A stretch of 64,000 nt of DNA from Candidatus Bipolaricaulota bacterium (GCA_040752575.1 JBFMGK010000067.1:1931-65930), one strand, 5' to 3'; positions 9,701 through 60,821 are shown, numbered from the stretch's first letter. A program made the numbers and translations. Notes: a model not told the origin generated them from the sequence alone.

Positions 9701-12226
9701 CTACTGAAGCAGCAGCGTCGCGCCGGAGGCCGTCGGGAGGCCGCCGCCCGCGGGCTCGGCCACGGCGACGATGGTGTACGCGCCGCCACCCAGACCGGCC
9801 GTGACGGAGCCGGGAATGACCACTTCGAACTGCCCGGCCGACTTCAACGTCGCCACAATCGTCGTCTCGCCGGCGGGCCCGACAAAGATCAACGACACGG
9901 CGGCCTTCGTCGCCGGCTCAAACACGTCGTACGGATAGAGGCCCTCGCTCGCCAGGATCGTGATCGTCACGTTCTGGCCGGCTTGCGCCGCGAGCGGGGT
10001 GACGACGTCGTCGACGCGCGTCACGCCGGTCTCAAACTCGTCGAGCCAGTACTGCGCGCTCCACGGGTAGCTTGGGTCGCGGTTCGCCTTCAGCGAGATC
10101 TGGCTGTTCGCCGGATCCACCGAGTCGATGTAGTACGGGCCGTTCGAGATGTAGGCGTGGCCATGGGCATCGATGAAGTCGATCGCGCTCTGGTACATCG
10201 CGGCGAGATCGTCGGCCGTCGCCCCGACCTCGGGAAGGAGCGGCGCGAGATACACGGGCACGAACTTCTGGTCGCGCATCTCGACGAGCTTCGCGCGGAT
10301 GTCCGAGACGATCGAGCGGACGAGCACGTCCACCTGCGTCACGCCGGTGGCCTGGGTGAACCCGTAGACCGTCCCCGACTCGCCGCCCTCGGCGACGAGC
10401 TTGCCCAACGCCTCGATGATCGTCCACTTCACGCCCTGACCGTGGTTCGACGCCCGCGGCCAGAAGGTCGGCGCGCCGGACGCCCCGACGCGGTCGAGGT
10501 CGGGCGGGAAGTTGTTGTCAAAGTAGGTCGTGATCTTCGCGTTGGCGAAGTCCCACACCGAACCATGCGTATACGCAAAGCCGGGCAGAATGGCCGACGA
10601 GATCCCCGAGTCGAAGTACGGGTCGCCCTCGTAGTCCTCGACCGCCCAGTCGGTCAGGAACCCCTCGGCCTGCGCGAAGTCGAGCAGCGAGGTCTCGCTG
10701 CCATCGTGGAAATTCGCGAGCTGGAACGTGTAGTCGGCCTTCGCCCAGGCGGCTTCGCCGGCGGTCGAGACCCAGGCCTTAGCGGTCGAGTCCCACTCCA
10801 CGGCGTTCGCCGGGGCGGCGAGCTGGCCTACCGCCGTGCCGTCGTCGGCAAACTCGACGTCGACCACGACGTTGCTCCACGACGAGATCACGGGCGTGTA
10901 GGCCGCGGATCCCGGAGCGGTCGTCGTGTTCGGGTCGGTGGTGTTCGTGATGATGTTCGCCGCGTAGGCGTCGTTGAACCCCTGCGTCCCCACGGGATCC
11001 CAGGCGTTCAGGAACAGCGAGCCGCGCGCCGAGAACTGCGACACGACCACGGGTCGCGTCTTGTTTGTCGGGACCATCGAGATCATGGTGTCGCGGTTGA
11101 GCCCATCGCCGAGACCGTAGAGGAAGCGGGTCTCAAACGCGGCCTTGTTCGCGGCGTAGTACGCGAAGTCGTGCTGCTGGTAGATGCGGACGGCCTCGGT
11201 CAGTCCCGCGGCGACGGACTTGGACATGAGCTCCCAGTACTCGTCGACCGTCTCGAACTGCCCATAAATGATCGCCTGCGTCCACGCGTCGAGCTCGGGG
11301 TGCTGGTAGTTCCACCAGGAGCTCTCTCCGATGCCCGGCATGTTCGTGTACCACGGCGCGTACATCTGCACGACGTCGACGTCCTTCCACAGGGACGTGC
11401 CGCCGGCGAGCCACCCCTCGGTGTAGATGTTCCAGAGGTAGTCAGCCGGGTCGGTCAGGTAGACGTCGCTGATGCATCGAGTGCGGTCCACTTCGACGTT
11501 GTTCACGACGAAGCCCGCCTGGCGAAGCTGGTCAGCAATTCGCCGGCCCATCGGGAGACGGACGTTCGGATCGTCGACGCGGATGTAGAAGTTGATCTCG
11601 ACGGGCGCGCCGTCGAACGTCCAGATGCCGTCGCCGCCGCGGGCGAGCCGACCGACGTTCTCGGGCAGCGCCGCCGCCGCGTTCATCGCGTCGTCGATCA
11701 TCTGGTAGGCCTTCGCCTGGTCGCCTTCCGGCGTCAGGCCGAGCTTCTGCGCCTCGAGATAGAGCTTGAAGGCGCCCGGCTCGAAGCTGCCGACCGAAAT
11801 GATGGACGGGCTCCCCGCGCCCTGCATGATCTCCTCAACCATCTGCTGCCGGTTGAGCAGGAAGTGCAGCGCAAAGCGAAGCTCGCGAATCGCGAACGGG
11901 TTGAACTTCTCTTCGCCGCTCGTCGTCACGGCGATGTACGGCGCCGCGTTCGGATACGGGTTCAAGAACAGGCTCTCCGAGGACGCCGGAACGACGTACA
12001 GCTCGAGCTTGTCGAGCGTCGCCTGGTCGAGTCCGAAGATCACGCTTCCCGCGGTCGTGTACTGGAAGATGTCGATGTTGCCGGCCGCGACGTCCTGAAG
12101 GGCGATTTCCTCCTGCATGCGGACGTTGTACAGAATGCCGTCCGCGAAGGGGCCCACCTGGGCGAGGCCCAGGCCGCTCAGGGCGCCGACAAGAAGCACC
12201 ACGCTAAGTACACTGCGTAGCCTCAT
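9701..12226 (-). CDS. ABC transporter substrate-binding protein, family 5 (peptide/nickel type) with a ~250 aa C-terminal extension
   Basis: Start placed at MRLRSVLSVVLLVG (signal peptide), preceded by a GGGAGGA RBS 10 nt upstream. SBP_bac_5-like core. The extra C-terminal beta-rich domain ends ...GGGAYTIVAVAEPAGGG. Confidence 0.85.
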   Translation of the reverse strand: MRLRSVLSVVLLVGALSGLGLAQVGPFADGILYNVRMQEEIALQDVAAGNIDIFQYTTAGSVIFGLDQATLDKLELYVVPASSESLFLNPYPNAAPYIAVTTSGEEKFNPFAIRELRFALHFLLNRQQMVEEIMQGAGSPSIISVGSFEPGAFKLYLEAQKLGLTPEGDQAKAYQMIDDAMNAAAALPENVGRLARGGDGIWTFDGAPVEINFYIRVDDPNVRLPMGRRIADQLRQAGFVVNNVEVDRTRCISDVYLTDPADYLWNIYTEGWLAGGTSLWKDVDVVQMYAPWYTNMPGIGESSWWNYQHPELDAWTQAIIYGQFETVDEYWELMSKSVAAGLTEAVRIYQQHDFAYYAANKAAFETRFLYGLGDGLNRDTMISMVPTNKTRPVVVSQFSARGSLFLNAWDPVGTQGFNDAYAANIITNTTDPNTTTAPGSAAYTPVISSWSNVVVDVEFADDGTAVGQLAAPANAVEWDSTAKAWVSTAGEAAWAKADYTFQLANFHDGSETSLLDFAQAEGFLTDWAVEDYEGDPYFDSGISSAILPGFAYTHGSVWDFANAKITTYFDNNFPPDLDRVGASGAPTFWPRASNHGQGVKWTIIEALGKLVAEGGESGTVYGFTQATGVTQVDVLVRSIVSDIRAKLVEMRDQKFVPVYLAPLLPEVGATADDLAAMYQSAIDFIDAHGHAYISNGPYYIDSVDPANSQISLKANRDPSYPWSAQYWLDEFETGVTRVDDVVTPLAAQAGQNVTITILASEGLYPYDVFEPATKAAVSLIFVGPAGETTIVATLKSAGQFEVVIPGSVTAGLGGGAYTIVAVAEPAGGGLPTASGATLLLQ

Positions 12227-12326
12227 TGCTTTCTTTCCTCCCTTTCCTACTGCGTCACTACCCATCCGGCGTGCCTTGCGGCGGCCGCTCCGGCCCTCTC
12301 GGCTCCGGATCGGCCGCGAGGCGAGC

Positions 12327-12737
12327 CTAGAGGCCGGCGAAGACCGCCTGGTAAAGGGCGATCGGCTGCGCCCGGCGGGCCGCCAGTTTCACGATGACGA
12401 AGTCAAGGTAGCCAACCTCCACCGGAAGGTTGATGCGGTAGAAGTTGTTGGCCATCTGCGCCAAGTAGTCGGTGAGACCCGTGGCCACCACCGCGCCGCC
12501 CGAGTAGATCAAACACTCCGCGTCGACGATGTTGACCGGCGTGAAGGCCTCGACGATGAGGGTGTTGTACGAGACGCCCTCGTCCATGTTCACAATCAGG
12601 AGCCAGCCAACCGTTCCGTCGGACGTCGCCGTCCAGAGGACGTTCGTCGCCTCGAAGAACGGGACAGCCCCTGCCGTCAACGCCCCTCCGACGAGCAGCG
12701 CCGACGCGAGCAGGACAACCATGCCCAGCTTCTTCAT
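12327..12737 (-). CDS. small secreted hypothetical protein (136 aa), first gene of Opp operon 2
   Basis: Start MKKLGMVVLLASALLVGGALTAGA (signal peptide), with an AAGGAGG RBS 10 nt upstream. The longer ORF-track start has no RBS. No recognisable domain. Confidence 0.5.
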   Translation of the reverse strand: MKKLGMVVLLASALLVGGALTAGAVPFFEATNVLWTATSDGTVGWLLIVNMDEGVSYNTLIVEAFTPVNIVDAECLIYSGGAVVATGLTDYLAQMANNFYRINLPVEVGYLDFVIVKLAARRAQPIALYQAVFAGL

Positions 12738-12819
12738 TCCTACGGAGCCTCCTTTTCTCTGCTCCCAAAAACAAAACCGGCGTCCACCAAGGGAGAATGG
12801 TTCTCCCGGTTCGCGCCGC

Positions 12820-12846
12820 CCTAGTGGAGAGTCAATCGGCATTATA
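12820..12846 (-). promoter_or_regulatory. conserved promoter/leader element of Opp operon 2 (minus-strand TATAAT plus CTCTCCACTAGG box)
   Basis: Plus-strand CCTAGTGGAGAGTCAATCGGCATTATA. On the minus strand this reads TATAAT-N6-TGACTCTCCACTAGG. A candidate -35 TTGCCT lies 16 nt upstream. The site is ~90 nt upstream of the operon's first ATG and nearly identical to the site at 19963–19987. Confidence 0.55.
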
Positions 12847-12901
12847 CGGAGAACGCTCGTCAAGGCAAGCCTTGCCTGCAGAAGAAGGTCCGGGACGGGT
12901 A

Positions 12902-13159
12902 TCAGCCGCGCCGGCGCCGCTCCCCGGTGTAGAGTGCGACGCCGATGAGGCCGATGAACAAACCGCCGACGGACGCAGCGTACGCCAAGATGCTCAGCCA
13001 CAGGGGCGCGGGGATCACGCCGAGCACCTCGGCAAACACGACGCCCCACGCCCCGACGAGCAGGAACAGGCTAACGAGAAGCAGACGCCGCGGGTTCCTC
13101 AGCGCGTCCTCCTTCTCGGAACAGCCAACACTCGACGAAGTGCCCGGGCGACGGCTCAA
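12902..13159 (-). CDS. possible small two-TM membrane protein (start uncertain, TTG/CTG)
   Basis: Hydrophobic ORF RRLLLVSLFLLVGAWGVVFAEVLGVIPAPLWLSILAYAASVGGLFIGLIGVALY. An AAGGAGGA lies inside the OppF1 3' end, just upstream of an in-frame CTG. No ATG is present, so it may be spurious. Confidence 0.25.
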   Translation of the reverse strand: MSRRPGTSSSVGCSEKEDALRNPRRLLLVSLFLLVGAWGVVFAEVLGVIPAPLWLSILAYAASVGGLFIGLIGVALYTGERRRRG

Positions 13160-14093
13160 AGGCCGGCGGCTCCTCGACGTTGCACAGCCCGTCGATGAAG
13201 AACTTGCAGCGCGGGTGGAAACGACAGCCCGGCGGAGGGTTGGCGAGGCTCGGCGGCTCGCCTGCCGGCACGTCCTTGATGACCTTCGCGTTCTCGGGGT
13301 CCGGGTCCGAGATCGCGGTCAATAGAGCCTGGGTGTAGGGATGCAGCGGGCTGTGGATGAGTTCGGCGACTTCGGCCTTCTCGACGAGCTTCGCCGCGTA
13401 CATGACGAACACGAACTCGGAGAAGTACCGCACCGTCGAGAGATCGTGCGTGATGTAGATCACGCCCAGTCCATGGGACTTCTGAACGCGCCGCAGCAAC
13501 TGAAGGATTTCGACCCGCACCGACGCGTCGAGCATCGATACCGGCTCATCGGCGACGATCAGCTTCGGCTCGAGGATGATCGCACGCGCGATGACAAGCC
13601 GTTGCTGCTGTCCGCCGCTCAGCATGTGAGGATACTTGTTGATGAAGTCGTCAACCGGCGTCAGACGAACTTCCTCCATGACCGCGCGGATCCGGGCCTC
13701 TTGCGCCTCTTTCGGCACGCCGTTCACCGCAAGCGGCTCGCTCAGGATGCGCCGCACGTTCATGAACGGAGCCAGCGCCCCGTAGGGATCCTGCTGAACG
13801 AATCCTACGTTGGAGCGCAACCAGACACGCGCGGACCCCTTCTTGGCCTCCATCCGGTGGCCGGCGAGTTCCATCTCGCCCCCCGTCAGCGGCACGAGGC
13901 CGAGGATCGTCTTCGCGAGGGTCGTCTTTCCCGATCCGCTCTCGCCAACAATCGTGATCGCCTGCCCCGCGTCGAGCGCGAAGCTCACCCCGTCCAAGGC
14001 CTTGACGTATCCGGCGTGGAAGAAACCCCACTTGCGCAGTTCGTACCACGTGCGCAGGTCGTTCACCGACAGCAGCTTCTCTTGCGTTGTCAT
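13071..14093 (-). CDS. oppF: oligopeptide ABC transporter ATP-binding protein (OppF-like), operon 1
   Basis: GESGSGKTT, LSGGQQQR, ADEPVS. Start moved to MTTQEKLLSVNDLRTWY (ATG at 14093, GAGGCGGAG upstream). C-terminal CRFHPRC motif. Confidence 0.9.
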   Translation of the reverse strand: MTTQEKLLSVNDLRTWYELRKWGFFHAGYVKALDGVSFALDAGQAITIVGESGSGKTTLAKTILGLVPLTGGEMELAGHRMEAKKGSARVWLRSNVGFVQQDPYGALAPFMNVRRILSEPLAVNGVPKEAQEARIRAVMEEVRLTPVDDFINKYPHMLSGGQQQRLVIARAIILEPKLIVADEPVSMLDASVRVEILQLLRRVQKSHGLGVIYITHDLSTVRYFSEFVFVMYAAKLVEKAEVAELIHSPLHPYTQALLTAISDPDPENAKVIKDVPAGEPPSLANPPPGCRFHPRCKFFIDGLCNVEEPPAFEPSPGHFVECWLFREGGRAEEPAASASR

Positions 14094-14103
14094 GGTCTCC
14101 GCC

Positions 14104-15069
14104 TCACACGTGTAGCCAGCACTTGACCCAGCGATCGCCGCCCACATCGACAAACGGCGGTTCCGCATCGCACTTCTCGAACCTCGACGGACAGCGCACG
14201 GCGAATCGGCACCCCGTGGGCGGATTCAGCAGGCTCGGCGGCTGACCCGGAATAAACTCGAGCTTCTTGTCCTCGCGCAGCGTCGGCACACTGGCCATCA
14301 GTTTGCGCGAATACGGGTGCAGCGGCGTCCGGAAGAAGTCGGTCGCGTCGGACAGCTCGACGAGTTGCCCGGCGTACATGACGGCCGCCCGATCGGCCAA
14401 CTCGCTTGACGTCGCGATGTCGTGCGTGATGAGAATGAACGTCACGCCAAGATCGTGCTTGATGCCCTTGAGGACGTTCATGATGTTCGTCTGCGTCAGG
14501 ACGTCGAGCGCGCTCGTCGGCTCGTCGAGAAAGACGATGTCCGGCCGCGTGACGAGCGCCATCGCGAGAACGGCCCGTTGCCTCATCCCGCCGGAGAGCT
14601 CGAACGGATAGCGGTCGAGGAAGTCCTTGGAGACCCCAACCAGGCGGAACACCTCTTCGGCCTGGTTGTGGGCGTCCTTCTTGCTCGCGGACAGCCCATG
14701 AACGCGCAGCGGCTCGGCCACCTGGTCCCCCACCTTGATCACCGGGTTGAGCGAGTTCATCGCCGCCTGGGAGACCAGCGACATCTTGACCCAGCGAACC
14801 TGCCGCCGGAAGGCCTCCTCGCCGAGCGTCATCACATCGGTCCCATTAAGCCAGATGCGCCCGCTGAACGTGTGCACGTTCCGCGGGAGCAGACGCAGGA
14901 TCGCCCGCGACAGCGTGCTCTTCCCGCACCCCGACTCTCCGACGACAACCGTCGCCGGTCCGCGCTGCATCTCGAAGCTGACGCCGTCGACCGCCTGAAC
15001 CGGGCCCTTCCCCGTGCGAAAGTGAAGCTTCAGATCCTCGACGCGAAGTACTTTCTCTGGTTTCGCCAT
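14104..15069 (-). CDS. oppD: oligopeptide ABC transporter ATP-binding protein (OppD-like), operon 1
   Basis: GESGCGKST, LSGGMRQR, LDEPTSALD. C-terminal CRFAVRC motif. Confidence 0.9.
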   Translation of the reverse strand: MAKPEKVLRVEDLKLHFRTGKGPVQAVDGVSFEMQRGPATVVVGESGCGKSTLSRAILRLLPRNVHTFSGRIWLNGTDVMTLGEEAFRRQVRWVKMSLVSQAAMNSLNPVIKVGDQVAEPLRVHGLSASKKDAHNQAEEVFRLVGVSKDFLDRYPFELSGGMRQRAVLAMALVTRPDIVFLDEPTSALDVLTQTNIMNVLKGIKHDLGVTFILITHDIATSSELADRAAVMYAGQLVELSDATDFFRTPLHPYSRKLMASVPTLREDKKLEFIPGQPPSLLNPPTGCRFAVRCPSRFEKCDAEPPFVDVGGDRWVKCWLHV

Positions 15070-15070
15070 A

Positions 15071-16429
15071 TCACATCGTCCTCAGCCGCGGGTTGAAGAT
15101 CCGATCGAGGGCGTAGCCGATCATTGCAAACCCGAATCCGGTAAACATCAAGGCAATCGCCGGCTGGATCACCCAGTAGTAGTAGCCCTTGTACAGCGCG
15201 TCCGCGCCACGTGCGTCGTTGATCACCTTGCCCCACGTCGGGAGCAGGGGGTCGCCCAAGCCGAGGACGGCGAGCGACGTCTCGAGGAAGACGAATCCGG
15301 GAATCACGAGCACAAACTGCGGCAACAGGACGGGGACGATGCGCGGCAGCAAGTAGCGGAAGATGAGCCGGAAGTTGCTCGCCCCGTAAGCCTTCGCCGC
15401 TTCGATATACGGGGCCTGCTTCGCCTGCAGGAACATCGCCCGATAGGTGAGCATGCCCGCGCTGAAGATGCTGAGCAGGATGATAATCGCAAGCATGAGC
15501 CACAAGCTCCGCGAGTAGAACTGCCCGATCATGATGAGGATTGGCAGTGTGGGCAAGAGCATGTTCAACTGGGTCAGGCGCTGGAAGATGGCGTCGAGTC
15601 GGCCGCCGTACCACGTGCCGATCCCGGCGAGGACGAACGTCGTCACGTTGGCGCCCACCGCCCCCAGGAGCCCGAAAATGAGTGCGAGCGGCGCTCCCCA
15701 GAGGAGGGCGACCGTCAGATCGCGGCGACGGTCGTCGGTTCCGGCGAGCCCATGGACCTGACCGTAGGCGACGAGTTTGGATTCGAACTCGAACCCTTCG
15801 GGTACCACGGCTTCGACCGTCAGCGTGTAGCGGCCCTTCACGGGCTTCGGATCGCCGGCCCCTGGAACGAACTGCGCCGGGTCGAGGAACAGCCCGATCT
15901 CGGGTTTGGTTCGCCCCGGCATCTGATTCAGGAGCTGGATGTCCTGGGACAGATAGTAGCCGTCTCGCGTCCTGACTCCCCGATCCGTGACGATCGGCGT
16001 CTCGCTTCCGTCGGGCCTCGTCCACAAGACCGAGTAGCGAGTCCGCTTCCCCTCGTAGGTGGCATCGGTGTACAGGGTGAGTTCCGTCGGGAAGGAGTCG
16101 TACGGGAAGTCAAACCCCAGCGCGATGCGCACCCGTTCGGTTCCGTCGCCGAGGGACTCGGCGGTGCGTTCTCCGGTCGTGCGCGAGTCGAGGACGATCG
16201 TCCGCGACAGCCTCGCCGGGGTGAACAGGTCGTACCAGATGGGCGCCGCGTTGCGCGGATAGTCGTCCCAGACCCCGGCGCCGCCTCGCCACAGACGGAT
16301 GGCCTCGCCGTAGGGAATCGCGATCACCGCGTAGACCGAAATCCCGACGAGAATCCCCACGATGATCAGCCCGGCAATCGCCGAGGGATACTGGCGCAAC
16401 GACCGGAAGAAGCTGACGAATCCCCTCAT
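15071..16429 (-). CDS. oppC: oligopeptide ABC transporter permease (OppC-like), operon 1
   Basis: The ORF-track start overlaps the upstream gene by ~360 nt. The ATG at 16429 (MRGFVSFFRSLRQYPSAIAG) forms an ATGA overlap with the OppB stop. Permease core with IEAAKAYGAS. Confidence 0.85.
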   Translation of the reverse strand: MRGFVSFFRSLRQYPSAIAGLIIVGILVGISVYAVIAIPYGEAIRLWRGGAGVWDDYPRNAAPIWYDLFTPARLSRTIVLDSRTTGERTAESLGDGTERVRIALGFDFPYDSFPTELTLYTDATYEGKRTRYSVLWTRPDGSETPIVTDRGVRTRDGYYLSQDIQLLNQMPGRTKPEIGLFLDPAQFVPGAGDPKPVKGRYTLTVEAVVPEGFEFESKLVAYGQVHGLAGTDDRRRDLTVALLWGAPLALIFGLLGAVGANVTTFVLAGIGTWYGGRLDAIFQRLTQLNMLLPTLPILIMIGQFYSRSLWLMLAIIILLSIFSAGMLTYRAMFLQAKQAPYIEAAKAYGASNFRLIFRYLLPRIVPVLLPQFVLVIPGFVFLETSLAVLGLGDPLLPTWGKVINDARGADALYKGYYYWVIQPAIALMFTGFGFAMIGYALDRIFNPRLRTM

Positions 16430-17517
16430 GCCGACCGCCCTCCTCCTGCGACGCGTACCCGGGGATCGACGATCGCGTAGATGAAGTCGAGCAGAAAGAC
16501 CGTGAGCGCCAGGAGATAGCCGAAGATGACGAGCGTGCCGACGATCACCGGCGTGTCGTTCAGGTTCACGGCCGTCAGGTACTGCCGGCCGAGGCCGGGC
16601 CAGTTGAATACGGTTTCCAGGATGATCTGGCCCATCCACGTACCGATGAGCATAAGCATGAAGCTCGTGATGATCGTCGGGAGCGTCGGACGCAAGATAT
16701 ACTGCCGCTGGATCGCCCGCGACGAGAGCCCCTTGGCCTTCGCCAGTTCGACGTAGTCCTCGCTCGAGTAGATCAAGAAGAACGTCCGCCACGTGTAGGC
16801 GCTCGCGAAGAAGACCGAAATCGTGATCGACAGCACCGGCAGGATCATGTGGTGGAGGAGGCTCACCGCGTACTCCAGGACGTTGTCAGGCGGCGGCGCC
16901 TTGACCATCCCCCCCCACGGCAAGATCCGAAAGACCGCCGCAAACAGCAAGATCAGGAAGATGCCGTAGAACCAGCCCGGCGCGGCCGAGAGCGGCGCCA
17001 GGCCGACGATCGTTTTGTCGAGCGTGCTGCCGTAGCGGCGCGAAAGGAACAGGGCCGTCACGATCGCGCTGAAGAAGAGGAGGAGATTGGCGGTGGCAAA
17101 GAGCAGAAGCGTTGGGGCCAGGCGTTCCCCGAGGATCCGCCGGACTTCTCTCGAGCCGCTGTCGCTCGAGATGTTCTCGGAGCGTCCGAGATTCAGGGTG
17201 ATCGCCGTTGTGAGGTAGTCCACGCTGCGGATCCAGAACGAACGGTCAAGCCCATAGCGGCGGAACTGCACGACACACAGGTCGTCGATCAGCTTCCTCA
17301 GCGTCGCCGGGTCGAGGCCCTGGTTCTCGGGGTTCATGTACACGGCCGTCGCGACGTTCAGGCGGATCTCTGACCGCCTGACCTCGTCGAGGCGTCCGCC
17401 CATGTTGGCGATGAGGATCACCAAGTAGAGGCCGACCACCAGCGTGATCAGCAGCGCGATCGCCTTTAGGGCAAGGTGCCGCGCCATCCTCCAGGCGTTC
17501 CCACTCATGGTCACCAC
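16426..17517 (-). CDS. oppB: oligopeptide ABC transporter permease (OppB-like), operon 1
   Basis: 363 aa, OppB-like topology. Motif AKAKGLSSRAIQRQYILR. The start may be the internal Met near 17487. Confidence 0.85.
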   Translation of the reverse strand: MVTMSGNAWRMARHLALKAIALLITLVVGLYLVILIANMGGRLDEVRRSEIRLNVATAVYMNPENQGLDPATLRKLIDDLCVVQFRRYGLDRSFWIRSVDYLTTAITLNLGRSENISSDSGSREVRRILGERLAPTLLLFATANLLLFFSAIVTALFLSRRYGSTLDKTIVGLAPLSAAPGWFYGIFLILLFAAVFRILPWGGMVKAPPPDNVLEYAVSLLHHMILPVLSITISVFFASAYTWRTFFLIYSSEDYVELAKAKGLSSRAIQRQYILRPTLPTIITSFMLMLIGTWMGQIILETVFNWPGLGRQYLTAVNLNDTPVIVGTLVIFGYLLALTVFLLDFIYAIVDPRVRVAGGGRSA

Positions 17518-17651
17518 TCACTCCTCTCGCGTCGGCGCCGACGTCGCGCCGGCGGGAAGAAGACGGGGGACCGCTGCCGGCCCTGGCCTTCAGCGATCCC
17601 CCAACCGCACGCTACCGAACGCTGTAGCCTTACATGTTAGGCCTGCAGCGC

Positions 17652-19829
17652 TTACGGACGTTCGTCAATGAGCCGCTGCCACTGGTCCGCCGGGTAGGGA
17701 TAGTCCGCAAACCGCTTAAGGACGATGACCTTCTCGGTCGGGAAAGCCTGTTCAAGGTAGAACTTCCCGCTCGCGACCCAGAAGTGCCCCATGTCCGCGT
17801 ACCAGTTGTCGAGCAACGTCCAGCGGTTCACGGCTTCGGACAGCGACAGGTAGTCCGCCATCGTCGGCTCGTATGGCCGGTAGCCCGTGCTCAGGCAGTC
17901 CAACAGCTGATCGTGCAGGATCTCCAGCGAAGGGCCGGCGATGTAGTTCGCCCACTCCACGCCAAGCGCCTGCGCCTTGTCGCTCGAGAACGCGAGCAGC
18001 TTCTTCTCCTCGGCGAGGATTCCGAGGGTCACCGTGTGCCAGAAGCCGGGGCCCTGGCTGTAATACGGGAACCAATCGGAAACGCCATTCTCGGCATCGA
18101 GCGTGACCAGATCCGAGTAGGTCTCGATGATCAGCGGATCCCTCGACACGATCTTGACGCCGCGGAAGGCGCTCATGAACGACTCGAACGCGCCGACCTG
18201 GGCCTCGTCGTAGATCTTGCTCTCGGGTTTCGCTTGGTCGAAGCTCATGATGATCCCAAGCACGAAGTCGGCGATCGAGATCTTCGACCCGTCGTGAAGC
18301 GGCGTGTCGTAGAGACTCGACGGATAGTAGACAACCGACTTACGCTTCGCCGTCACGCCGTCAGGGTACTTCTCGGCGACGGTGATGAACTTCTGCGCCG
18401 CCGCGTCCCAGTCTGCCCATGCATCGCTCGGAACCTGGATGACGTCCTGGAACTTCAGCGTGCACCACGACGCCCCATCCGAGACCCCGACAGGGAGCCC
18501 GGTCTGGATCGTGATCTCGGCGCGATCGAAGTGCAGCGGCCAGATCAGACCCGTGTTCACATCCATGACGTACCCGGTCTCACCGGTCCCGCGGATCGGG
18601 AGCATGTCGTACGTCCAGTTCGAGCCGGCCACCGGGTTCCACGGCTCGACGAGCAACGTCGATGTGGCCATGTCCAGCGACCCGCCGACCTGCGGATTCC
18701 CGTCCGCCCCCTCGAAGTAGATGGCCTGGGCCCACGACTGCGAGCCGTACACGCCCCCCGCGAGGTCCGCCGCCGCCTGGACGCCCTTCCGGAATGGCGT
18801 GAAGCCGGTCCGGTCGACGAGCCAGATCATGTTCGCGAACTGGTTGCAGCCCCAGAGGGCTTCCTCGAACAGGTCCGCGCGCTCGTCCATCGTCGCATAG
18901 TCGCGGTTGTAGAGCTTGTCCAACGTGACCCAAAGCCCCGGAGAGACGGCATCGGCCATCTCCTCGGTGAGGTACTGGAACAGAGGCCACGGCAGGATGC
19001 GGTTCGTGTGGAACTGGTTGAAGCCCGTTCCCTGATCGCGCGAGATGGCCGTGGTCACCCATCCGCCCGTGTAGAAGTGCCATTGGCCATCCGTCGGGTC
19101 GGAGCTAATCCAGATCGGCGACGCCTCGCGGCTGATCCGGTACAAGCGCTGCGTCGTGAATCCGACTTCCTCGAGCAAGCCGCAGACGTAGTCGCCGATC
19201 AACCGGCGCTCGTCCTCGGTTCGAATCACGGCGATGATCTCGACGTTCTGCCCGTTGTACTGCCACTTCCCGCCGACAAGCGTCGCGCCGAGGTCGGTCA
19301 TGACGGTCGTCATCGCGGCTTCGGCCTTGTCGGGGTCGTTTGCGTAGTAGTCCGCGATCTCGTCCATGACCTCGCGATACCGCACTGCGTCGGCGAACGC
19401 CGAGTTCAGGTACGAATACTTCGGGACGGCCATGCCACCCATGATCTCGTTCGCGATGTACTCGCGATCGATGAGCCAGTGCACGGCCTCACGGAACGCG
19501 GGAACGGCAAACGGGTTCAGCCGTCCGTCGTTGAAGACGGGTCCCGCGGGGTTGAACGTGAGGTCGTTGAACGAGCCGTACGACATCACGTAGTCGAGGT
19601 TCGCGCTCGCCTGGACCTGGCCGAACAACGCCCGGTCGCCGATAGAAAACGCGTAGAGGTCGATGTCTCCTGCCTCAAGCTTCAGAATCGCTGCGCCGGT
19701 GCTGGGTTCCTCGGTGAACGTCACCTGGTCCAGCCACGCGCCGTTGTGCGCCGCAACGCTGGCCCCCACGGCCAGGATTCCGATGAGGAGGAGGCCGATC
19801 CACTTTGGCCAGCTTCCCTTCTGCATCAT
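17652..19829 (-). CDS. ABC transporter substrate-binding protein, family 5, N-terminally anchored
   Basis: 725 aa. N-terminal signal/anchor MMQKGSWPKWIGLLLIGILAVGASVAA. GCAGGAGGTG RBS 8 nt upstream. SBP_bac_5-like core. Confidence 0.85.
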   Translation of the reverse strand: MMQKGSWPKWIGLLLIGILAVGASVAAHNGAWLDQVTFTEEPSTGAAILKLEAGDIDLYAFSIGDRALFGQVQASANLDYVMSYGSFNDLTFNPAGPVFNDGRLNPFAVPAFREAVHWLIDREYIANEIMGGMAVPKYSYLNSAFADAVRYREVMDEIADYYANDPDKAEAAMTTVMTDLGATLVGGKWQYNGQNVEIIAVIRTEDERRLIGDYVCGLLEEVGFTTQRLYRISREASPIWISSDPTDGQWHFYTGGWVTTAISRDQGTGFNQFHTNRILPWPLFQYLTEEMADAVSPGLWVTLDKLYNRDYATMDERADLFEEALWGCNQFANMIWLVDRTGFTPFRKGVQAAADLAGGVYGSQSWAQAIYFEGADGNPQVGGSLDMATSTLLVEPWNPVAGSNWTYDMLPIRGTGETGYVMDVNTGLIWPLHFDRAEITIQTGLPVGVSDGASWCTLKFQDVIQVPSDAWADWDAAAQKFITVAEKYPDGVTAKRKSVVYYPSSLYDTPLHDGSKISIADFVLGIIMSFDQAKPESKIYDEAQVGAFESFMSAFRGVKIVSRDPLIIETYSDLVTLDAENGVSDWFPYYSQGPGFWHTVTLGILAEEKKLLAFSSDKAQALGVEWANYIAGPSLEILHDQLLDCLSTGYRPYEPTMADYLSLSEAVNRWTLLDNWYADMGHFWVASGKFYLEQAFPTEKVIVLKRFADYPYPADQWQRLIDERP

Positions 19830-19962
19830 CTACAAAGCACCTCCTGCAAACCTACGGAGCTTCCGCAGTCTAGCAGTCCCGCCCGAGTTCGACGCTCCCT
19901 CTGTCGGTATCCGACAGAGAAGAGGACGATGGCTCTTTGGACGCCGACCTTCGTCCTTGCAG

Positions 19963-20010
19963 CCTAGTGGAGAGTCGATCGATTATAGCCGTCGCCTACA
20001 AGGGTGACAA
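19963..20010 (-). promoter_or_regulatory. conserved promoter/leader element of Opp operon 1 (TTGTCA-N17-TATAAT plus CTCTCCACTAGG box)
   Basis: Plus-strand CCTAGTGGAGAGTCGATCGATTATA...TGACAA. On the minus strand this gives TTGTCA-N17-TATAAT followed by CGATCGACTCTCCACTAGG, ~135 nt upstream of the SBP start. Confidence 0.6.
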
Positions 20011-20175
20011 GACCCGGGAGCGCCAAATCCCCGTTCAGCTCTGCAGACCGTCACACCCCATGCAGCGTCTTCCAGAGCCTCGGCGCGAGGCCGTCTCGGC
20101 GCGTAGGCTTGGCGGCGAGAAGGGGCGTAGCTATACTCGTTCCCACGGGACGTTTCGCAGCGGGAGCACGGACCC

Positions 20176-20436
20176 ATGGAGAACCTCAAGGTCGCCTCGG
20201 GGAGCAATCCTAACTCGGTATCGGGAGCCATCGTCGCATCGCTCGAGCAGTGTGACGTGGTCCAGATTCACGCCGTGGGGGCAGGAGCCGTCAATCAGGC
20301 TGTGAAGGCCATCGCCATTGCGCGCCGCGCGCTAGAGCGTCCGGGCGATCGCCCGTTGCGCGTCGTACCGGGGTTCGTCGACCTTTCGATCGACGGAGAA
20401 ACGAAGACCGCCGTGCGGCTGTTCGTCGAGCGGTAG
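20176..20436 (+). CDS. spoVS: stage V sporulation protein S homolog (SpoVS family)
   Basis: 86 aa. MENLKVASGSNPNSVSGAIV...IHAVGAGAVNQAVKAIAIAR...DGETKTAVRLFVE aligns along the full length with the SpoVS family (KVSxxSxPNSVAGA, IGAGAxNQAVKAxAIAR). Confidence 0.85.
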   Translation: MENLKVASGSNPNSVSGAIVASLEQCDVVQIHAVGAGAVNQAVKAIAIARRALERPGDRPLRVVPGFVDLSIDGETKTAVRLFVER

Positions 20437-20452
20437 GCCGCGATCGCGTATC

Positions 20453-22126
20453 ATGCCCGCCATGGCCGCCCCACGGGACACCTATCTGGAAGGTCTTGTG
20501 CGCGATGCGCTGTTGGACGCCTATCGTGGGCTTCGCGGCGTCGAGCCGACCGTCTACTCCGATGTCCGCCCGAGCGAACGACCGGAGTTCGGCGACTACG
20601 CCACGAATCTCGCGATGCTCGCCGCCAAGCACGAGGGCCTGGCGCCTCGCCCGCTTGCCGAGGCGTTGACGGCAGAGCTGGCCGAGCGAGCGAGCGAGTC
20701 GGGACTTCGCGCCGAGGTCGCCGGCCCGGGGTTCATCAACGTGTTTCTCTCCTCGCACCACCTGCATAACGCCCTCCGGGGAATGCTCGGTGCGGGTCCG
20801 AGCTACGGAGCCTCCGCCCTGGGAGGGGGCCGCCGCGTTCAGGTGGAGTTCGTCAGCTCGAACCCGACGGGCCCGCTCACCGTCGGCCACGGACGCCAGG
20901 CCGTCCTAGGCGACGTGCTGGCCTCGCTCTACGGCGAACTGGGCTACGACGTCGAGCGCGAGTACTACTTCAACGACGAGGGGCGGCAGGTCGATCTGCT
21001 CGCCGAGTCGCTCTGGATTCGCTACCGCGAGCTGTTCGGCGAGGCGCGCGAGATCCCCGAGGGCGGCTACCAAGGCGAGTACCTCAAGGATCTGGCGGCC
21101 GCCGTCCGCGACGCCCTCGGCGACGGATTCGAGACGTTCGACGAGAAGGCGCGCAAGGCCTTCCGTGATGAGGTCGTGGCCCGGATCAGCGAAGGCATTC
21201 GTAGGGATCTTCACGCGCTGGGCATTGCGTTCGATCGCTTCTTTAGCGAGGCGACGCTCCACCGCGAAGGCAAGGTCGACGCGGCGCTCGGCCTTCTGCG
21301 GACCCGCGGGGCGGTGTACGAGCGCGACGGCGCCGTGTGGCTGCGCGCCGAGCACGTCCGAGGCGGGAAGGACTCGGTGCTTGTCCGCAGCGATGGCCGG
21401 CCGACATACCTGCTCGTCGACATCGCCTACCACCTCGACAAGCGGGAACGCGGACTCGACCTCGTCATCGACGTGCAGGGCGCCGATCACGTGACAGAGC
21501 AGGCCTGCATGAAGGCCGCCGCGGGAGCCCTGGGGTTCCCCGAGGGGTTTCTGAACTACGCTGTGCACCAGTTTGTGAGCTTGAAGCGAGGCGGCGTCGT
21601 CCAGAGGATGTCGACGCGTGCGGGGCGTTTCGTGACCCTGCGGGATCTCTTGGACGAAGTCGGACCGGACATGGTTCGCTACTTCATGATCTCGAAGAAG
21701 CCCGAGGCGCATCTGGACTTCGACCTCGACCTCGCCAAGAGCCAGTCGCTCGACAACCCGGCAACGACGATCCAGTACGCCCACACTCGACTCGCCTCGC
21801 TGTTCCGCAAAGCCGGACGACTCGCCGACGAGCTGGATGCGGCCGACCTCGCGCCGCTGACCTCGGCCGACGACGTCGCGCTGATCAAGGCGCTGGATCG
21901 CTTTCCCAAGATCGTGTGGACGGCTGCCGAGGCCTTCGGACCCCATCTCCTTGCGGAGTACGCGCTGGACCTCGCTCGGACCTCTCACGGGTACTACGAC
22001 CGAAACCGCGTGCTCGGCGAGCCCGAAGCGGTGGGCCGTGCCCGGCTCGCCCTGCTTCGGGTAACTCGCGGAGTCCTCCACAAGTCGCTTGGGCTCCTCG
22101 GGATGGTCGCCCCGGAGGAGATGTAA
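20453..22126 (+). CDS. argS: arginine--tRNA ligase
   Basis: 557 aa. Class I motif SSNPTGPLTVGHGR, MSTR (KMSKS-like) motif and C-terminal DALR-type anticodon-binding domain. Confidence 0.9.
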   Translation: MPAMAAPRDTYLEGLVRDALLDAYRGLRGVEPTVYSDVRPSERPEFGDYATNLAMLAAKHEGLAPRPLAEALTAELAERASESGLRAEVAGPGFINVFLSSHHLHNALRGMLGAGPSYGASALGGGRRVQVEFVSSNPTGPLTVGHGRQAVLGDVLASLYGELGYDVEREYYFNDEGRQVDLLAESLWIRYRELFGEAREIPEGGYQGEYLKDLAAAVRDALGDGFETFDEKARKAFRDEVVARISEGIRRDLHALGIAFDRFFSEATLHREGKVDAALGLLRTRGAVYERDGAVWLRAEHVRGGKDSVLVRSDGRPTYLLVDIAYHLDKRERGLDLVIDVQGADHVTEQACMKAAAGALGFPEGFLNYAVHQFVSLKRGGVVQRMSTRAGRFVTLRDLLDEVGPDMVRYFMISKKPEAHLDFDLDLAKSQSLDNPATTIQYAHTRLASLFRKAGRLADELDAADLAPLTSADDVALIKALDRFPKIVWTAAEAFGPHLLAEYALDLARTSHGYYDRNRVLGEPEAVGRARLALLRVTRGVLHKSLGLLGMVAPEEM

Positions 22127-58592: not shown

Positions 58593-59963
58593 GTGCAGGC
58601 TGAGCTCGCCATACGCGGGGGCACCGTCGTCACGCCGTGGGCGGCGTTCACGTCGGACGTCGCGATCGAAGGTGGACGTATTGCGGCCGTCGGAGACCAC
58701 CAGCGAGGGCGGCGCGAGATCGACGCCACGGGGATGCTCGTCCTGCCGGGAGCGATCGACGCGCACACACACATGGCCGCCCCCGTGGCCGGTCAACGCT
58801 CAAGCGACGACTTCCTTTCGGGATCGCGTGCCGCGGCGAGCGGCGGCGTCACGACAATCATCGACTTCACGGCAGGCTCTCCCGAACGTTCGATTCCCGA
58901 GGCGATCGAGGCGCGCGAACGCGATGCCGCACCCTGTATTGTTGACTACGCTTTGCACGGAGAGGTCGTGGGATGGACGCCCGGTCGCGAAAGCGAGTTC
59001 GGGGACGCGGTCGAGCTCGGGGTGGCGAGCTTCAAGTTCTACACAACGTATGAGTCGTCTGGGTTGAGGACGCCGCCGGACATCATGGCGCCTGCCTTCC
59101 GTGAGCTGGCGTTTCTTGGCGCGATCGCCCTCGTGCACGCCGAAGACGAGGGGCTTCTGCGCTCCATGGCCGCCCGGCTGAACGAAGCGGACCGCGGCCG
59201 CATGGCGACGCTGGCCGAGGCTCGCCCGGATCTGGCCGAAGCCGCCGCCATTTCTCAGGTCGGACGTCTGGCCCGCGACGCAGGCTGTCGACTCCACATC
59301 GTCCATGTGAGCTCGGCAGCAGGCCTCAGCGCCGTTCGCGCCGCGCGCGCTGCAGGCGGCCGGCTCACGGCCGAGACGTGCCCGCAGTATCTCCTGCTCA
59401 CGCGCGATGTGTACGACCTGCCCGACGGACACCTCTTCGCCGTCATGCCGCCGCTGCGACGCGCGGAGGACCGTCGCACTCTCTGGTCCGGACTCGCGCG
59501 GCGCGACCTGGACTTCGTGGCCACGGATCACTGCCCGTTCACCCGCGCGCAGAAGGCGTGGAGAGGAGCGTTCGACCTCGTAGCCTACGGCCTTCCGGGA
59601 GTCGAGACGCTTCTGCCTCTCCTGTTCTCGGAGGGTGTCGCCAAGGGACGTCTCGCCTTGCCCGACGTCGTACGTCTTCTTGCCGAGGGACCGGCGAGAA
59701 CCTACGGCCTCTACCCCGCGAAGGGGAGCCTCGAGGTGGGCGCCGATGCCGATGTCGTGTTGTTCGATCCGGCTGCCGCGTGGACGATCCGGGCGAGCGA
59801 TCTCCATATGGAAACCGACTTCTCGCCGTATGAGGGCTTCGGAGTCACGGGCCGTGTCGTCCGAACCCTCTCGAGAGGCGAAGAGATCTTCCGGGACGGC
59901 GAGATCGTCGCCTCCGCCGGGCGGGGCCACCGTGTGCACACGAAGCCCCTCGAGGTTTTGTGA
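58593..59963 (+). CDS. D-hydantoinase / dihydropyrimidinase-family cyclic amidohydrolase
   Basis: GTG start with GGGAAGGGAA upstream. Metal ligands IDAHTH. Carbamylated-lysine context SFKFYTTY, plus VHAED, HIVHVSS and ATDHCPF. The ORF-track N-terminal extension is rejected. Confidence 0.85.
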   Translation: MQAELAIRGGTVVTPWAAFTSDVAIEGGRIAAVGDHQRGRREIDATGMLVLPGAIDAHTHMAAPVAGQRSSDDFLSGSRAAASGGVTTIIDFTAGSPERSIPEAIEARERDAAPCIVDYALHGEVVGWTPGRESEFGDAVELGVASFKFYTTYESSGLRTPPDIMAPAFRELAFLGAIALVHAEDEGLLRSMAARLNEADRGRMATLAEARPDLAEAAAISQVGRLARDAGCRLHIVHVSSAAGLSAVRAARAAGGRLTAETCPQYLLLTRDVYDLPDGHLFAVMPPLRRAEDRRTLWSGLARRDLDFVATDHCPFTRAQKAWRGAFDLVAYGLPGVETLLPLLFSEGVAKGRLALPDVVRLLAEGPARTYGLYPAKGSLEVGADADVVLFDPAAAWTIRASDLHMETDFSPYEGFGVTGRVVRTLSRGEEIFRDGEIVASAGRGHRVHTKPLEVL

Positions 59964-60018
59964 CGCCCCGGAACCGACGGACGGCTGAGGCCCCGGGATC
60001 CGGGGGCGAGGAGGAAGC

Positions 60019-60727: not shown

Positions 60728-60735
60728 TGGAGAGG

Positions 60736-60817
60736 CGGCAGCCCCTGTGCCTGCCGCAGATCGAGAGAGGATGGGGCGGCAGTCCCTGTGCCTGCCGCAG
60801 ATCGAGAGAAAGGATGA
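60736..60817 (+). repeat. tandem direct repeat (2 × ~40 bp) with internal palindrome upstream of arcC
   Basis: GCGGCAG[C/T]CCCTGTGCCTGCCGCAGATCGAGAGA(G/AA)GGATG(G/A) occurs twice, head to tail. Each copy contains the inverted repeat CGGCAG-N9-CTGCCG and a GAGAGRGG-ATG translation-initiation-like segment. Confidence 0.7.
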
Positions 60818-60821
60818 TGGG

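What the first reader, a model, noticed from the sequence alone, without database searches (positions are those of the whole stretch)
12820..12846. Conserved promoter/leader module shared by both Opp operons (site 1)
Upstream of the first gene of operon 2, the minus strand reads TATAAT-N6-TGACTCTCCACTAGG. The same -10 hexamer plus CTCTCCACTAGG box recurs upstream of operon 1 at 19963–19987, where it is preceded by a near-consensus TTGTCA-N17 spacer. The conserved box begins about 6–8 nt after the -10. It would therefore cover the transcription start and early transcript, the classic position for a repressor operator or a conserved leader element. A second, related box (GCTCCGTAGG) is found next to the RBS in both leaders. 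Co-regulation of the two transporters by one factor is implied.
Basis: seen in the sequence. Interest (0 to 1): 0.6.

Follow-up and report, generated by a model that had tools for sequence, protein, structure and literature searches.

The report
Shared start-site box of Opp operons
Two only distantly related peptide-transporter operons of an uncultured Bipolaricaulota bacterium carry the same promoter followed, right at the predicted transcription start, by an identical 14-base box that related genomes also keep, so it is probably a real shared control site, but whether it is read on DNA or on the mRNA is not settled.

Summary
On the minus strand, TATAAT-N7-GACTCTCCACTAGG (12846-12820) precedes operon 2. 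TTGTCA-N17-TATAAT-N5-GACTCTCCACTAGG (20010-19963) precedes operon 1. GCTCCGTAGG lies next to both ribosome-binding sites.

It is not a duplication relic. The two operons are old paralogues: binding proteins 26% identical, permeases 37%, ATPases 45%. The box survives in orthologous leaders of other Bipolaricaulota for both lineages, with consensus (G/T)ACTCTCYRCTAGR. Its CTAG always lies 14-17 nt after the -10, which puts the box at the predicted transcription start. Box-bearing promoters share a TTGTCN -35, so promoter and box form one module. In operon 1 this module sits upstream of an older, decaying proximal promoter.

What reads the box is unresolved. It is single-copy and not palindromic, no regulator gene lies beside it, and it matches no Rfam family. 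Cis-pairing ideas (anti-Shine-Dalgarno, 5' hairpin, antiterminator) failed shuffle controls or ortholog checks. In the predicted folds the box tends to be accessible.

My preferred reading (about 0.4) is a site on the mRNA 5' end bound by a trans-acting protein or small RNA. A DNA operator (about 0.3) remains a serious rival. Interest is moderate: a new cis-regulatory motif of a familiar kind in an uncultured phylum.

The parts
12863..12868 (-). -35 hexamer TTGCCT of the operon 2 promoter
   Evidence: Consensus scan, 16-nt spacer to TATAAT, 10/12. Orthologues have TTGTCC, TTGTCT or TTGTCA at the same place.
12841..12846 (-). -10 hexamer TATAAT of the operon 2 promoter
   Evidence: Conserved as TATAAT or TATACT in L211, L215 and L216.
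12820..12833 (-). Box 1, GACTCTCCACTAGG, at the predicted transcription start of operon 2
   Evidence: The orthologous leaders carry ACTCTCTACTAGA (L211-L215) and ATCTCCGCTAGA (L216, L217) at the same distance from the -10.
12767..12818 (-). Terminator-like hairpin in the operon 2 leader: CGGCG...CGCCG (12818-12778), then G and TTTTGTTTTT (12776-12767). Specific to this genome.
   Evidence: It is the minimum-energy fold of the nascent 57-nt RNA, -23.5 kcal/mol. There is no U-run in L211, L215 or L216.
12739..12748 (-). Box 2, GCTCCGTAGG, between the Shine-Dalgarno GGAGG (12752-12748) and the ATG (12737) of operon 2
   Evidence: GGAGGCTCCGTAG is identical in L211-L215 but absent in L216.
20005..20010 (-). 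-35 hexamer TTGTCA of the distal promoter P1 of operon 1
   Evidence: 11/12, 17-nt spacer. L001 and L201-L205 have TTGTCT-N17-TAGAAT.
19982..19987 (-). -10 hexamer TATAAT of P1, operon 1
19963..19976 (-). Box 1, GACTCTCCACTAGG, at the predicted P1 transcription start of operon 1
   Evidence: It is 14/14 identical in the 77%-identity orthologue locus (L001, L201-L205) and 10/12 identical in L002.
19867..19875 (-). TGCTAGACT, the extended -10 of the ancestral proximal promoter P2 of operon 1. Its -35 has decayed.
   Evidence: It aligns with TTGAC-N17-TA(G/A)ACT promoters of L002, L004 and L005. L001 has TCGACT, so the key A is lost.
19851..19860 (-). Box 2, GCTCCGTAGG, in the operon 1 leader. 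It starts 6 nt after the P2 -10 and lies 5 nt before AGGAGG.
   Evidence: It is not present in L001 or L201-L205.
20176..20436 (+). spoVS, divergent neighbour of operon 1. Given as context only; any link to the box is speculative.
   Evidence: Pfam PF04232, E = 3e-27. Promoter-like TTGGCG-17-TATACT at 20109-20137.

Best explanation
The finding is one conserved promoter-plus-leader module. A sigma-70-type promoter (TTGTCN, 17 nt, TATAAT) is followed 5-8 nt later, at the predicted transcription start, by a single-copy, non-palindromic, pyrimidine-rich box with consensus (G/T)ACTCTCYRCTAGR. The module drives two anciently diverged Opp-family ABC-transporter operons in one subgroup of Bipolaricaulota.

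I infer that the box is the first 12-14 nt of both mRNAs. I infer further that it works there as an exposed binding site for one trans-acting factor, either an RNA-binding protein or a small RNA, which sets the stability or translation of both transporter mRNAs together. In the operon 2 lineage a second related site (CUCCGUAGG) sits between the Shine-Dalgarno sequence and the start codon. Binding there would block the ribosome directly.

Shown:
- the sequence, its position and its conservation;
- the box is not a duplication relic;
- no convincing pairing in cis.

Inferred:
- the transcription start;
- that recognition happens on RNA;
- that a trans-acting factor exists, and what it is.
For: 1. 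The same 14-mer follows the two best promoter matches of the region, on the same strand.
2. The operons are old paralogues: binding proteins 26%, permeases 37%, ATPases 45% identical. Neutral DNA would have lost all similarity.
3. The box is kept in orthologous leaders of both lineages while the flanks diverge. It is 14/14 in L001 and L201-L205 (binding protein 77% identical), ACTCTCTACTAGA in L211-L215 (70%), and ATCTCCGCTAGA in L216 and L217 (60%).
4. The distance from the -10 to the invariant CTAG is 14-17 nt in all six promoters, although the intervening sequence is not conserved. The box therefore always begins within about 2 nt of the expected start and is always transcribed.
5. It is asymmetric, always in the sense orientation, and single-copy. 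This fits RNA recognition better than a dimeric DNA binder.
6. All three substitutions seen inside the box are transitions (C/U, A/G, G/A), so all variants could pair with one fixed partner through wobble pairs.
7. In predicted ensembles the box is easier to open than the mean of its own shuffled versions in 6 of 6 leaders.
8. Box 2 lies inside the translation-initiation region, and GGAGGCTCCGTAG is identical across 70%-identity orthologues.
9. In the roughly 1.09 Mb held at that point (window plus 98 loci), the degenerate motif TCYRCTAGR hits almost only these leaders.
Against: - No transcription start has been mapped.
- No partner was found. There is no complementary seed in 323 kb of Bipolaricaulota DNA apart from the antisense strand of the boxes and coding-region hits.
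- There is no Rfam match.
- The accessibility signal is weak. Only about five leaders are independent, and only operon 1 is individually extreme.
- Three transitions out of three is thin evidence.
- Box 2 is missing from L216 and from the closest operon 1 orthologue, so a two-site model is not general.
- Every positional argument also fits a DNA operator that overlaps +1.
- In operon 1, box 2 starts 6 nt after the -10 of the second promoter, the same geometry as box 1 after P1. This is what one would also expect of a start-site operator.
Confidence: 0.4

Rival explanations
1. DNA operator. The box is the binding site of a transcription factor, most simply a repressor that occludes RNA polymerase at +1, encoded elsewhere in the genome. 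The factor would switch both transporter operons together.
For: - The box overlaps the predicted start in every case.
- Conservation is of sequence, with no supporting covariation.
- The rare CTAG tetranucleotide is invariant. CTAG cores occur in some operators such as TrpR (from memory).
- Operon 1 has two tandem promoters, and a CTCC-N-TAGG box starts 6-9 nt after each -10. The orthologue whose second promoter is dead lacks the second box.
- The best upstream box-like matches in operon 1, L201 and L211 lie 32-35 bp upstream.
Against: - There is no dyad or convincing direct-repeat architecture. Extra copies are no better than shuffles (p 0.04-0.74).
- No regulator gene is adjacent.
- The box is never found on the other strand or upstream of the -10.
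- Box 2 of operon 2 sits at about +85, between the Shine-Dalgarno sequence and the ATG, an unusual place for an operator.
- The -10-to-box distance shifts by 3 bp.
Confidence: 0.3
2. Promoter-intrinsic or hitch-hiking sequence. The box is part of a strong promoter cassette, as initially transcribed sequence that affects start-site choice, promoter escape or basal mRNA stability. The cassette was copied from the operon 2 lineage to operon 1 by recombination or gene conversion. No dedicated regulator is involved.
For: - Promoter and box travel together. Box-bearing promoters have a TTGTCN -35 (operon 1, L001, L211, L215, L216). Box-less orthologues have TTGACN (L002 proximal, L004, L005, L206, L207, L209, L210).
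- In operon 1 the module lies upstream of an older proximal promoter.
- Within this genome the two copies are identical, including CGAT before the box. The operon 2 orthologues differ at 2-3 positions, as expected after recent conversion.
Against: - Between the window and L001, and between the window and L211, the spacers on both sides of the box have diverged completely while the box has not. Selection therefore acts on the box itself.
- No -10-like pause element is conserved in it; the position corresponding to the final T varies.
- Conversion tracts of only 14-27 nt and 10 nt inside otherwise unalignable leaders would be unusual.
Confidence: 0.17
3. Cis-acting RNA structure. The box would be the 5' arm of a helix that hides the ribosome-binding site (anti-Shine-Dalgarno), forms a protective 5' stem-loop, or acts as an antiterminator against the leader terminator.
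For: - UCUCC can pair with GGAGG.
- RNAalifold pairs the box with the Shine-Dalgarno region. In L001 this helix has 12 pairs.
- In operon 2 CCACUAGGG can pair with CCCUUGGUGG next to a terminator-like hairpin.
Against: - The duplex energy of box against the initiation region is no better than for shuffled boxes (p 0.40-0.75; L001 0.135).
- The predicted partner differs in every leader.
- The consensus fold of operon 1 plus L001, projected on operon 1, gives -9.7 against a minimum free energy of -61.4 kcal/mol.
- The box is more open than shuffled versions.
- The antiterminator conformer is 3.6 kcal/mol worse than the terminator.
- The U-run is absent from L211, L215 and L216.
Confidence: 0.08
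4. Chance resemblance between two G+C-rich upstream regions.
For: Repeated 14-mers are common in the window: 204 distinct ones.
Against: Same strand, same distance from the two best promoters, a second shared 10-mer, and independent retention in orthologous leaders of both lineages.
Confidence: 0.02

Closest known systems
GcvB small-RNA target sites in the oppA and dppA leaders of enterobacteria (GcvB regulates sstT, oppA, dppA and cycA; PMC3658540)
   Same: Paralogous peptide-transporter mRNAs share a short, G-poor, single-stranded box in the 5' leader, through which one trans-acting factor could co-regulate them. The box variants differ only by transitions.
   Different: No GcvB-like RNA or complementary seed was found. 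The box sits at the extreme 5' end rather than next to the ribosome-binding site. The sequence is unrelated to the C/A-rich GcvB sites (from memory). The phylum is Bipolaricaulota. The resemblance is one of logic only.
RsaE control of the opp3 operon in Staphylococcus aureus (PMC2965222)
   Same: An Opp operon controlled post-transcriptionally through a short motif in its leader.
   Different: RsaE uses C-rich loops that pair with the Shine-Dalgarno sequence (from memory). Here the mRNA itself carries the pyrimidine-rich motif, and its pairing to the Shine-Dalgarno sequence is no better than chance.
Start-site-overlapping repressor operators, such as lac O1 or the CodY, ScoC and AbrB sites at Bacillus opp and dpp promoters (from memory)
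   Same: A conserved block immediately downstream of the -10 that covers +1. It is shared by functionally related operons.
   Different: The box is not palindromic, is single-copy, has no neighbouring regulator gene, keeps a fixed orientation and lies wholly within transcribed DNA. No sequence similarity to the CodY box is evident.
Leader-terminator attenuators and 5'-UTR-derived small RNAs
   Same: In this genome the operon 2 leader has promoter, 14-nt 5' tail, long hairpin and U-run, which is the anatomy of an attenuator or of a short released RNA.
   Different: The terminator is absent from the orthologous leaders and does not compete with the box. It cannot explain the conserved box.

Membership tests
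Any described RNA family (Rfam 15: riboswitches, T-box, protein-binding leaders, small RNAs) | Match to a covariance model at or near the gathering score | tested here: not met
   No hit in the whole window at gathering thresholds. In permissive scans of both leaders there was only a CrfA match at 12.3 bits against a threshold of 38, E = 8.2. No hit upstream of the orthologue in L201.
Sigma-70-type promoter | -35 and -10 hexamers close to consensus with a 16-18-nt spacer, upstream of the first gene | tested here: met
   TTGTCA-17-TATAAT (11/12) and TTGCCT-16-TATAAT (10/12), the two best sites in 9 kb. Conserved in orthologues. Activity and transcription start were not measured.
Classical dimeric repressor operator | Dyad symmetry, or tandem repeats of a half-site | tested here: not met
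   GACTCTCCACTAGG is palindromic only in its CTAG core. Position-weight-matrix scans for further copies within 60 nt upstream or in the leader are no better than shuffles.
Classical dimeric repressor operator | Overlap with the core promoter or transcription start | tested here: met
   The box starts 5-8 nt after the -10 in six promoters. The transcription start is predicted, not mapped.
Classical dimeric repressor operator | Cognate regulator gene adjacent or divergent (common but not obligatory) | tested here: not met
   The neighbours are spoVS, argS, ftsY and pyruvate phosphate dikinase. The only clear transcription factor seen in the regions scanned is a GntR/FCD protein 40 kb away, at 59960-60727.
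Anti-Shine-Dalgarno sequestering leader | Complementarity of the element to the ribosome-binding region beyond what its composition gives, kept across orthologues | tested here: not met
   RNAduplex energies of -6.1 to -12.9 kcal/mol do not differ from shuffled boxes (p 0.40-0.75; L001 0.135). The box is more open than shuffles.
Terminator/antiterminator attenuator | Intrinsic terminator between promoter and first gene | tested here: inconclusive
   Present in operon 2 of the window (hairpin 12818-12778 plus U-run). Absent from operon 1 and from L211, L215 and L216.
Terminator/antiterminator attenuator | A mutually exclusive antiterminator of comparable stability that involves the conserved element | tested here: not met
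   The box-containing alternative scores -19.9 against -23.5 kcal/mol for the terminator. The terminator still forms when the box is held unpaired, at -22.4.
Target site of a trans-acting small RNA (GcvB-like logic) | Accessible, conserved single-stranded site shared by several target mRNAs | tested here: inconclusive
   The site is shared by two operon lineages and conserved. Its opening energy is below the shuffled mean in 6 of 6 leaders, but only operon 1 is individually extreme.
Target site of a trans-acting small RNA (GcvB-like logic) | A small RNA with a complementary seed in the same genome | not testable with these tools
   None in the window or in 323 kb of related loci.
Short upstream open reading frame or leader peptide | Start codon, conserved reading frame and a synonymous substitution pattern | tested here: not met
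   Reading the sequences directly: TTG-ACT-CTC-CAC-TAG exists in operon 2 and L001, but operon 1, L211 and L216 lack a start codon. Box 1 and box 2 are in different relative frames in the two leaders (85 against 116 nt apart).

The most novel reading that the evidence does not exclude
The box is the 5'-terminal recognition tag of a post-transcriptional regulon in Bipolaricaulota that has not been described. An RNA-binding protein or a small RNA would bind the first 12-14 nt of both transporter mRNAs. One candidate protein is the Alba-fold protein SpoVS, encoded divergently from operon 1 and from the operon 2 orthologue in L216. In this genome the operon 2 leader stops at an intrinsic terminator 67 nt downstream. 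It could therefore also release a short RNA carrying the same tag, which would compete for the factor as a decoy.
Probability: 0.08. Interest if true: 0.7.

Novelty: new member of a known kind. Interest (0 to 1): 0.4.

Why it matters
Bipolaricaulota (Acetothermia) are uncultured fermenters. I know of no cis-regulatory element described for them, and my one literature query on the phylum found none. From memory, peptide uptake is thought to be central to their metabolism.

A conserved start-site box shared by two anciently diverged peptide-transporter operons would be a first handle on gene regulation in this phylum. It gives a concrete probe for pull-downs and a motif for scanning MAGs and metatranscriptomes. 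It also shows a promoter-leader cassette being placed upstream of an older promoter, bringing a second operon under the same control.

The kind of element, a promoter-proximal regulatory box or leader site, is familiar. The value is therefore local rather than conceptual, unless the factor proves to be unusual.

Tried and rejected
1. Rfam, at gathering and permissive thresholds, on the window, both leaders and an orthologous upstream region: nothing.
One hit, L191, mimics the layout (TTGATC-17-CATAAT-N4-box-hairpin-T-run). However, it lies in an integrase/primase mobile element of an unrelated contig, so I treat it as chance.
3. TCCACTAGA upstream of the orthologous genes in Anaerolineae (L066, L075) looked like a distant box. 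CTAG upstream of Chloroflexi orthologues is mostly part of TAGAAT or TAGACT -10 hexamers. Rejected.
4. Anti-Shine-Dalgarno pairing: rejected by shuffle controls.
5. Box as the arm of a 5' hairpin or domain-closing helix: the partner differs in each leader, and the box is more open than shuffles.
6. A shared fold for operon 1 and L001: the RNAalifold consensus is simply the L001 minimum-energy fold and fails on operon 1.
7. Antiterminator role against the operon 2 leader terminator: energetically disfavoured and not conserved.
8. Repeated operators around the promoter: not significant.
9. Small RNA with a complementary seed, including wobble pairs: none in 323 kb. CGTAGTGGAGAG at 60723-60734 (+), which is 11/12 complementary, is within chance expectation and overlaps a stop codon.
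10. Mini-ORF or coding explanation: no consistent start codon or frame.
11. Duplication relic: rejected by protein divergence.
12. By eye only, against consensus sequences recalled from memory and without a tool test, I saw no convincing match to the DnaA box, the sigma-28 -10 element, the CodY box, the PyrR motif, or CsrA, TRAP or HutP motifs.
13. Exact-sequence look-ups of three window proteins found no record. The source contig itself could not be retrieved beyond the window.

Full report
**What is there.**
On the minus strand, operon 2 has these elements:
- TTGCCT 12868-12863, then a 16-nt spacer
- TATAAT 12846-12841, then 7 nt
- GACTCTCCACTAGG 12833-12820
- a leader of about 80 nt
- GGAGG 12752-12748, overlapping GCTCCGTAGG 12748-12739
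- ATG at 12737

Operon 1 has these elements:
- TTGTCA 20010-20005, then 17 nt
- TATAAT 19987-19982, then 5 nt
- the same 14-mer at 19976-19963
- GCTCCGTAGG at 19860-19851
- AGGAGG 19845-19840
- ATG at 19829

The two promoters are the best sigma-70-like matches in 12000-21000. The 12-mer core occurs exactly only at these two places in the window.

A repeated 14-mer alone is not remarkable here, because 204 distinct 14-mers recur in this G+C-rich window. What is unusual is the shared strand, the shared distance from a promoter, and the conservation described below.

**Gene context.**
Pfam scans of ORFs in this region give these results:
- Operon 1 (19829-13071) encodes a 725-aa family-5 solute-binding protein, two permeases and two ATPases.
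- Operon 2 (12737-5079) starts with a 136-aa signal-peptide protein that has no Pfam hit. An 841-aa binding protein, two permeases and two ATPases follow.
- Upstream of operon 1, in divergent orientation, lie spoVS (20176-20436), argS, ftsY and pyruvate phosphate dikinase.
- No transcription-factor gene lies beside either promoter.

The closest relatives of the proteins are from Candidatus Bipolaricaulota MAGs.

**Not a duplication relic.**
The two operons are old paralogues. The binding proteins are 26% identical over 272 residues, the permeases 37% and the ATPases 45%. At that divergence unconstrained DNA keeps no similarity. An identical 14-mer plus an identical 10-mer in otherwise unalignable leaders needs either selection or recent transfer.

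**Orthologous leaders.**
For the operon 1 lineage:
- The 77%-identity orthologue (L001, L201-L205) has TTGTCT-N17-TAGAAT-N8-GACTCTCCACTAGG. The box is 14/14 identical while both spacers differ.
- The 72% orthologue (L002) has CTTTCCACTAGA further from a promoter.
- More distant orthologues (L004, L005, L206, L207, L209, L210; 53-69%) lack the box.

For the operon 2 lineage:
- L211-L214 and L215 (70%) have TATAAT or TATACT, then ggctctt, then ACTCTCTACTAGA. They also have GGAGGCTCCGTAG before the ATG.
- L216 and L217 (60%) have TTGTCA-N17-TATAAT-gaagaag-ATCTCCGCTAGA, without the second box.

The consensus is (G/T)ACTCTCYRCTAGR. CTAG is invariant, and every substitution within the box is a transition.

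The distance from the -10 to CTAG is:

| Leader | Distance (nt) |
|---|---|
| operon 1 | 14 |
| L216 | 14 |
| L211, L215 | 15 |
| operon 2 | 16 |
| L001 | 17 |

The box therefore always begins about where transcription should start.

A degenerate search (TCYRCTAGR) of the window plus 98 loci (1.09 Mb) gave 27 hits. Almost all are these leaders.

**A promoter-box module, and how operon 1 got it.**
Box-bearing promoters have a TTGTCN -35 (operon 2 of the window has TTGCCT). Box-less orthologues have TTGACN. Promoter and box therefore travel together.

Operon 1 also retains an older proximal promoter. TGCTAGACT (19875-19867) aligns with the TTGAC-N17-TA(G/A)ACT promoters of L002, L004 and L005. 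Its -35 has decayed in the window, and its -10 has lost the key A in L001.

The module was therefore added upstream of an existing promoter in the operon 1 lineage. It is present in all operon 2 orthologues sampled.

In the window, the second box of operon 1 starts 6 nt after this older -10. L001, whose older promoter is dead, has no second box.

**Tests of mechanism.**
- Known RNA families: none match.
- Cis-pairing: RNAalifold pairs the box with the Shine-Dalgarno region. However, that consensus is only the L001 fold. Projected on operon 1 it gives -9.7 against a minimum free energy of -61.4 kcal/mol.
- Anti-Shine-Dalgarno: duplex energies of box against initiation region match shuffled boxes.
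- Pairing partner: the predicted partner differs in each leader.
- Accessibility: the box costs less to open than the mean of its shuffled versions in six of six leaders.
- Leader terminator: in this genome the operon 2 leader has a terminator-like hairpin with a U-run (12818-12767). It is the minimum-energy fold of the nascent RNA. It does not compete with the box and is absent from the orthologues.
- DNA symmetry: the box is not palindromic beyond CTAG. Further box-like copies near the promoter or in the leader are not enriched.
- Complementary small-RNA seed: none exists in 323 kb of related DNA.

**Interpretation.**
The box is a real cis element under selection, specific to these two transporter operons. 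The simplest reading is that one trans-acting factor reads it and couples the two operons.

I favour recognition on the mRNA 5' end (0.4). The reasons are that the box is always transcribed, always in one orientation, asymmetric, single-copy and predicted to be accessible. It varies only by wobble-compatible transitions. Its relative, box 2, sits inside the translation-initiation region of operon 2.

A start-site DNA operator (0.3) fits the positional data equally well. It is favoured by the two-promoter, two-box arrangement of operon 1.

A promoter-intrinsic or hitch-hiking cassette (0.17) explains the linkage with the -35 and the within-genome identity. It does not explain why only the box survives between species.

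Cis-structure models (0.08) and chance (0.02) are disfavoured.

**Comparison with known systems.**
The logic resembles GcvB control of oppA and dppA (PMC3658540) or RsaE control of opp3 (PMC2965222). It also resembles start-site operators. No defining feature of any specific family was met beyond a sigma-70-type promoter.

SpoVS, predicted to be an Alba-like nucleic-acid binder (PMC2732212), is a divergent neighbour in the window and in L216 and L217. It is not a neighbour in L201 or L211. It is a speculative candidate only.

**Limits.**
- No transcription start data are available.
- The source genome could not be scanned beyond 64 kb.
- Only about five independent leaders carry the box.

Noticed in passing
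window 12767-12818 (-): The operon 2 leader contains a long imperfect hairpin (CGGCG...CGCCG) followed by G and TTTTGTTTTT. This is the anatomy of an intrinsic terminator, placed between the promoter/box and the ribosome-binding site, and it would yield an RNA of about 67 nt beginning with the box. Orthologous leaders lack the U-run. No clear terminator separates the end of operon 1 (12902) from the operon 2 promoter, so the hairpin may also stop read-through from operon 1.
   Followed up: partly
window 19867-19875 (-): TGCTAGACT is the extended -10 of an ancestral proximal promoter of operon 1. It is homologous to the only promoter of more distant orthologues. Its -35 has decayed here, so operon 1 may have two tandem promoters.
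   Followed up: partly
window 19826-19849 (-): A seven-codon upstream ORF (TTG CAG GAG GTG CTT TGT AGA TGA) has a stop that overlaps the ATG of the binding-protein gene (ATGA). Its TTG lies the same 10 nt after GGAAG as the operon 2 ATG lies after GGAGG, with box 2 in between.
   Followed up: no
window 60735-60821 (+): A tandem duplication of about 41 nt lies directly upstream of a carbamate-kinase-like gene (60822-61775) and just after a GntR/FCD regulator gene (59960-60727). Each copy has a GCGGCAG-N9-CTGCCGC hairpin followed by AGATCGAGAGA..GGATG. The ribosome-binding region appears to be duplicated.
   Followed up: no
L201 3800-4150 (-), and the 5' ends of L001 and L202-L205: A transposase-like ORF remnant lies immediately upstream of the orthologous promoter. 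Independent assemblies of this locus end or diverge exactly 5 nt upstream of the -35. This suggests a strain-variable insertion next to the module.
   Followed up: partly
window 20176-20436 (+); L216 3931-4191; L215 4820-5095; L210 4737-4994; L206 157-336: A spoVS-argS-ftsY cluster recurs next to Opp-family operons in Bipolaricaulota. spoVS is divergent from a box-bearing promoter in the window and in L216 and L217. It is absent next to the box-bearing promoters of L201 and L211.
   Followed up: partly
window 12327-12737 (-); L209 9551-9949; L210 9479-9922; L215 9438-9842; L216 4463-4861: A conserved small (132-147 aa) signal-peptide protein with no Pfam hit is encoded directly upstream of the large binding-protein gene in the operon 2 type and in some operon 1 type operons.
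   Followed up: no
window 12739-12748 and 12820-12831 (-): Both boxes (CTCC-G-TAGGA and CTCC-AC-TAGG) resemble CTCCCGTAGGA, the complement of the universal 16S rRNA region targeted by the EUB338 probe. This is recalled from memory and was not tested. It is probably coincidental.
   Followed up: no
L191 3570-3662 (+): An unrelated metagenomic contig, a mobile element with integrase and primase genes, has TTGATC-17-CATAAT-N4-GACTCTCCACTAGG fused to a hairpin and T-run. This mimics a small-RNA gene with the same 5' sequence. I judged it to be chance.
   Followed up: partly
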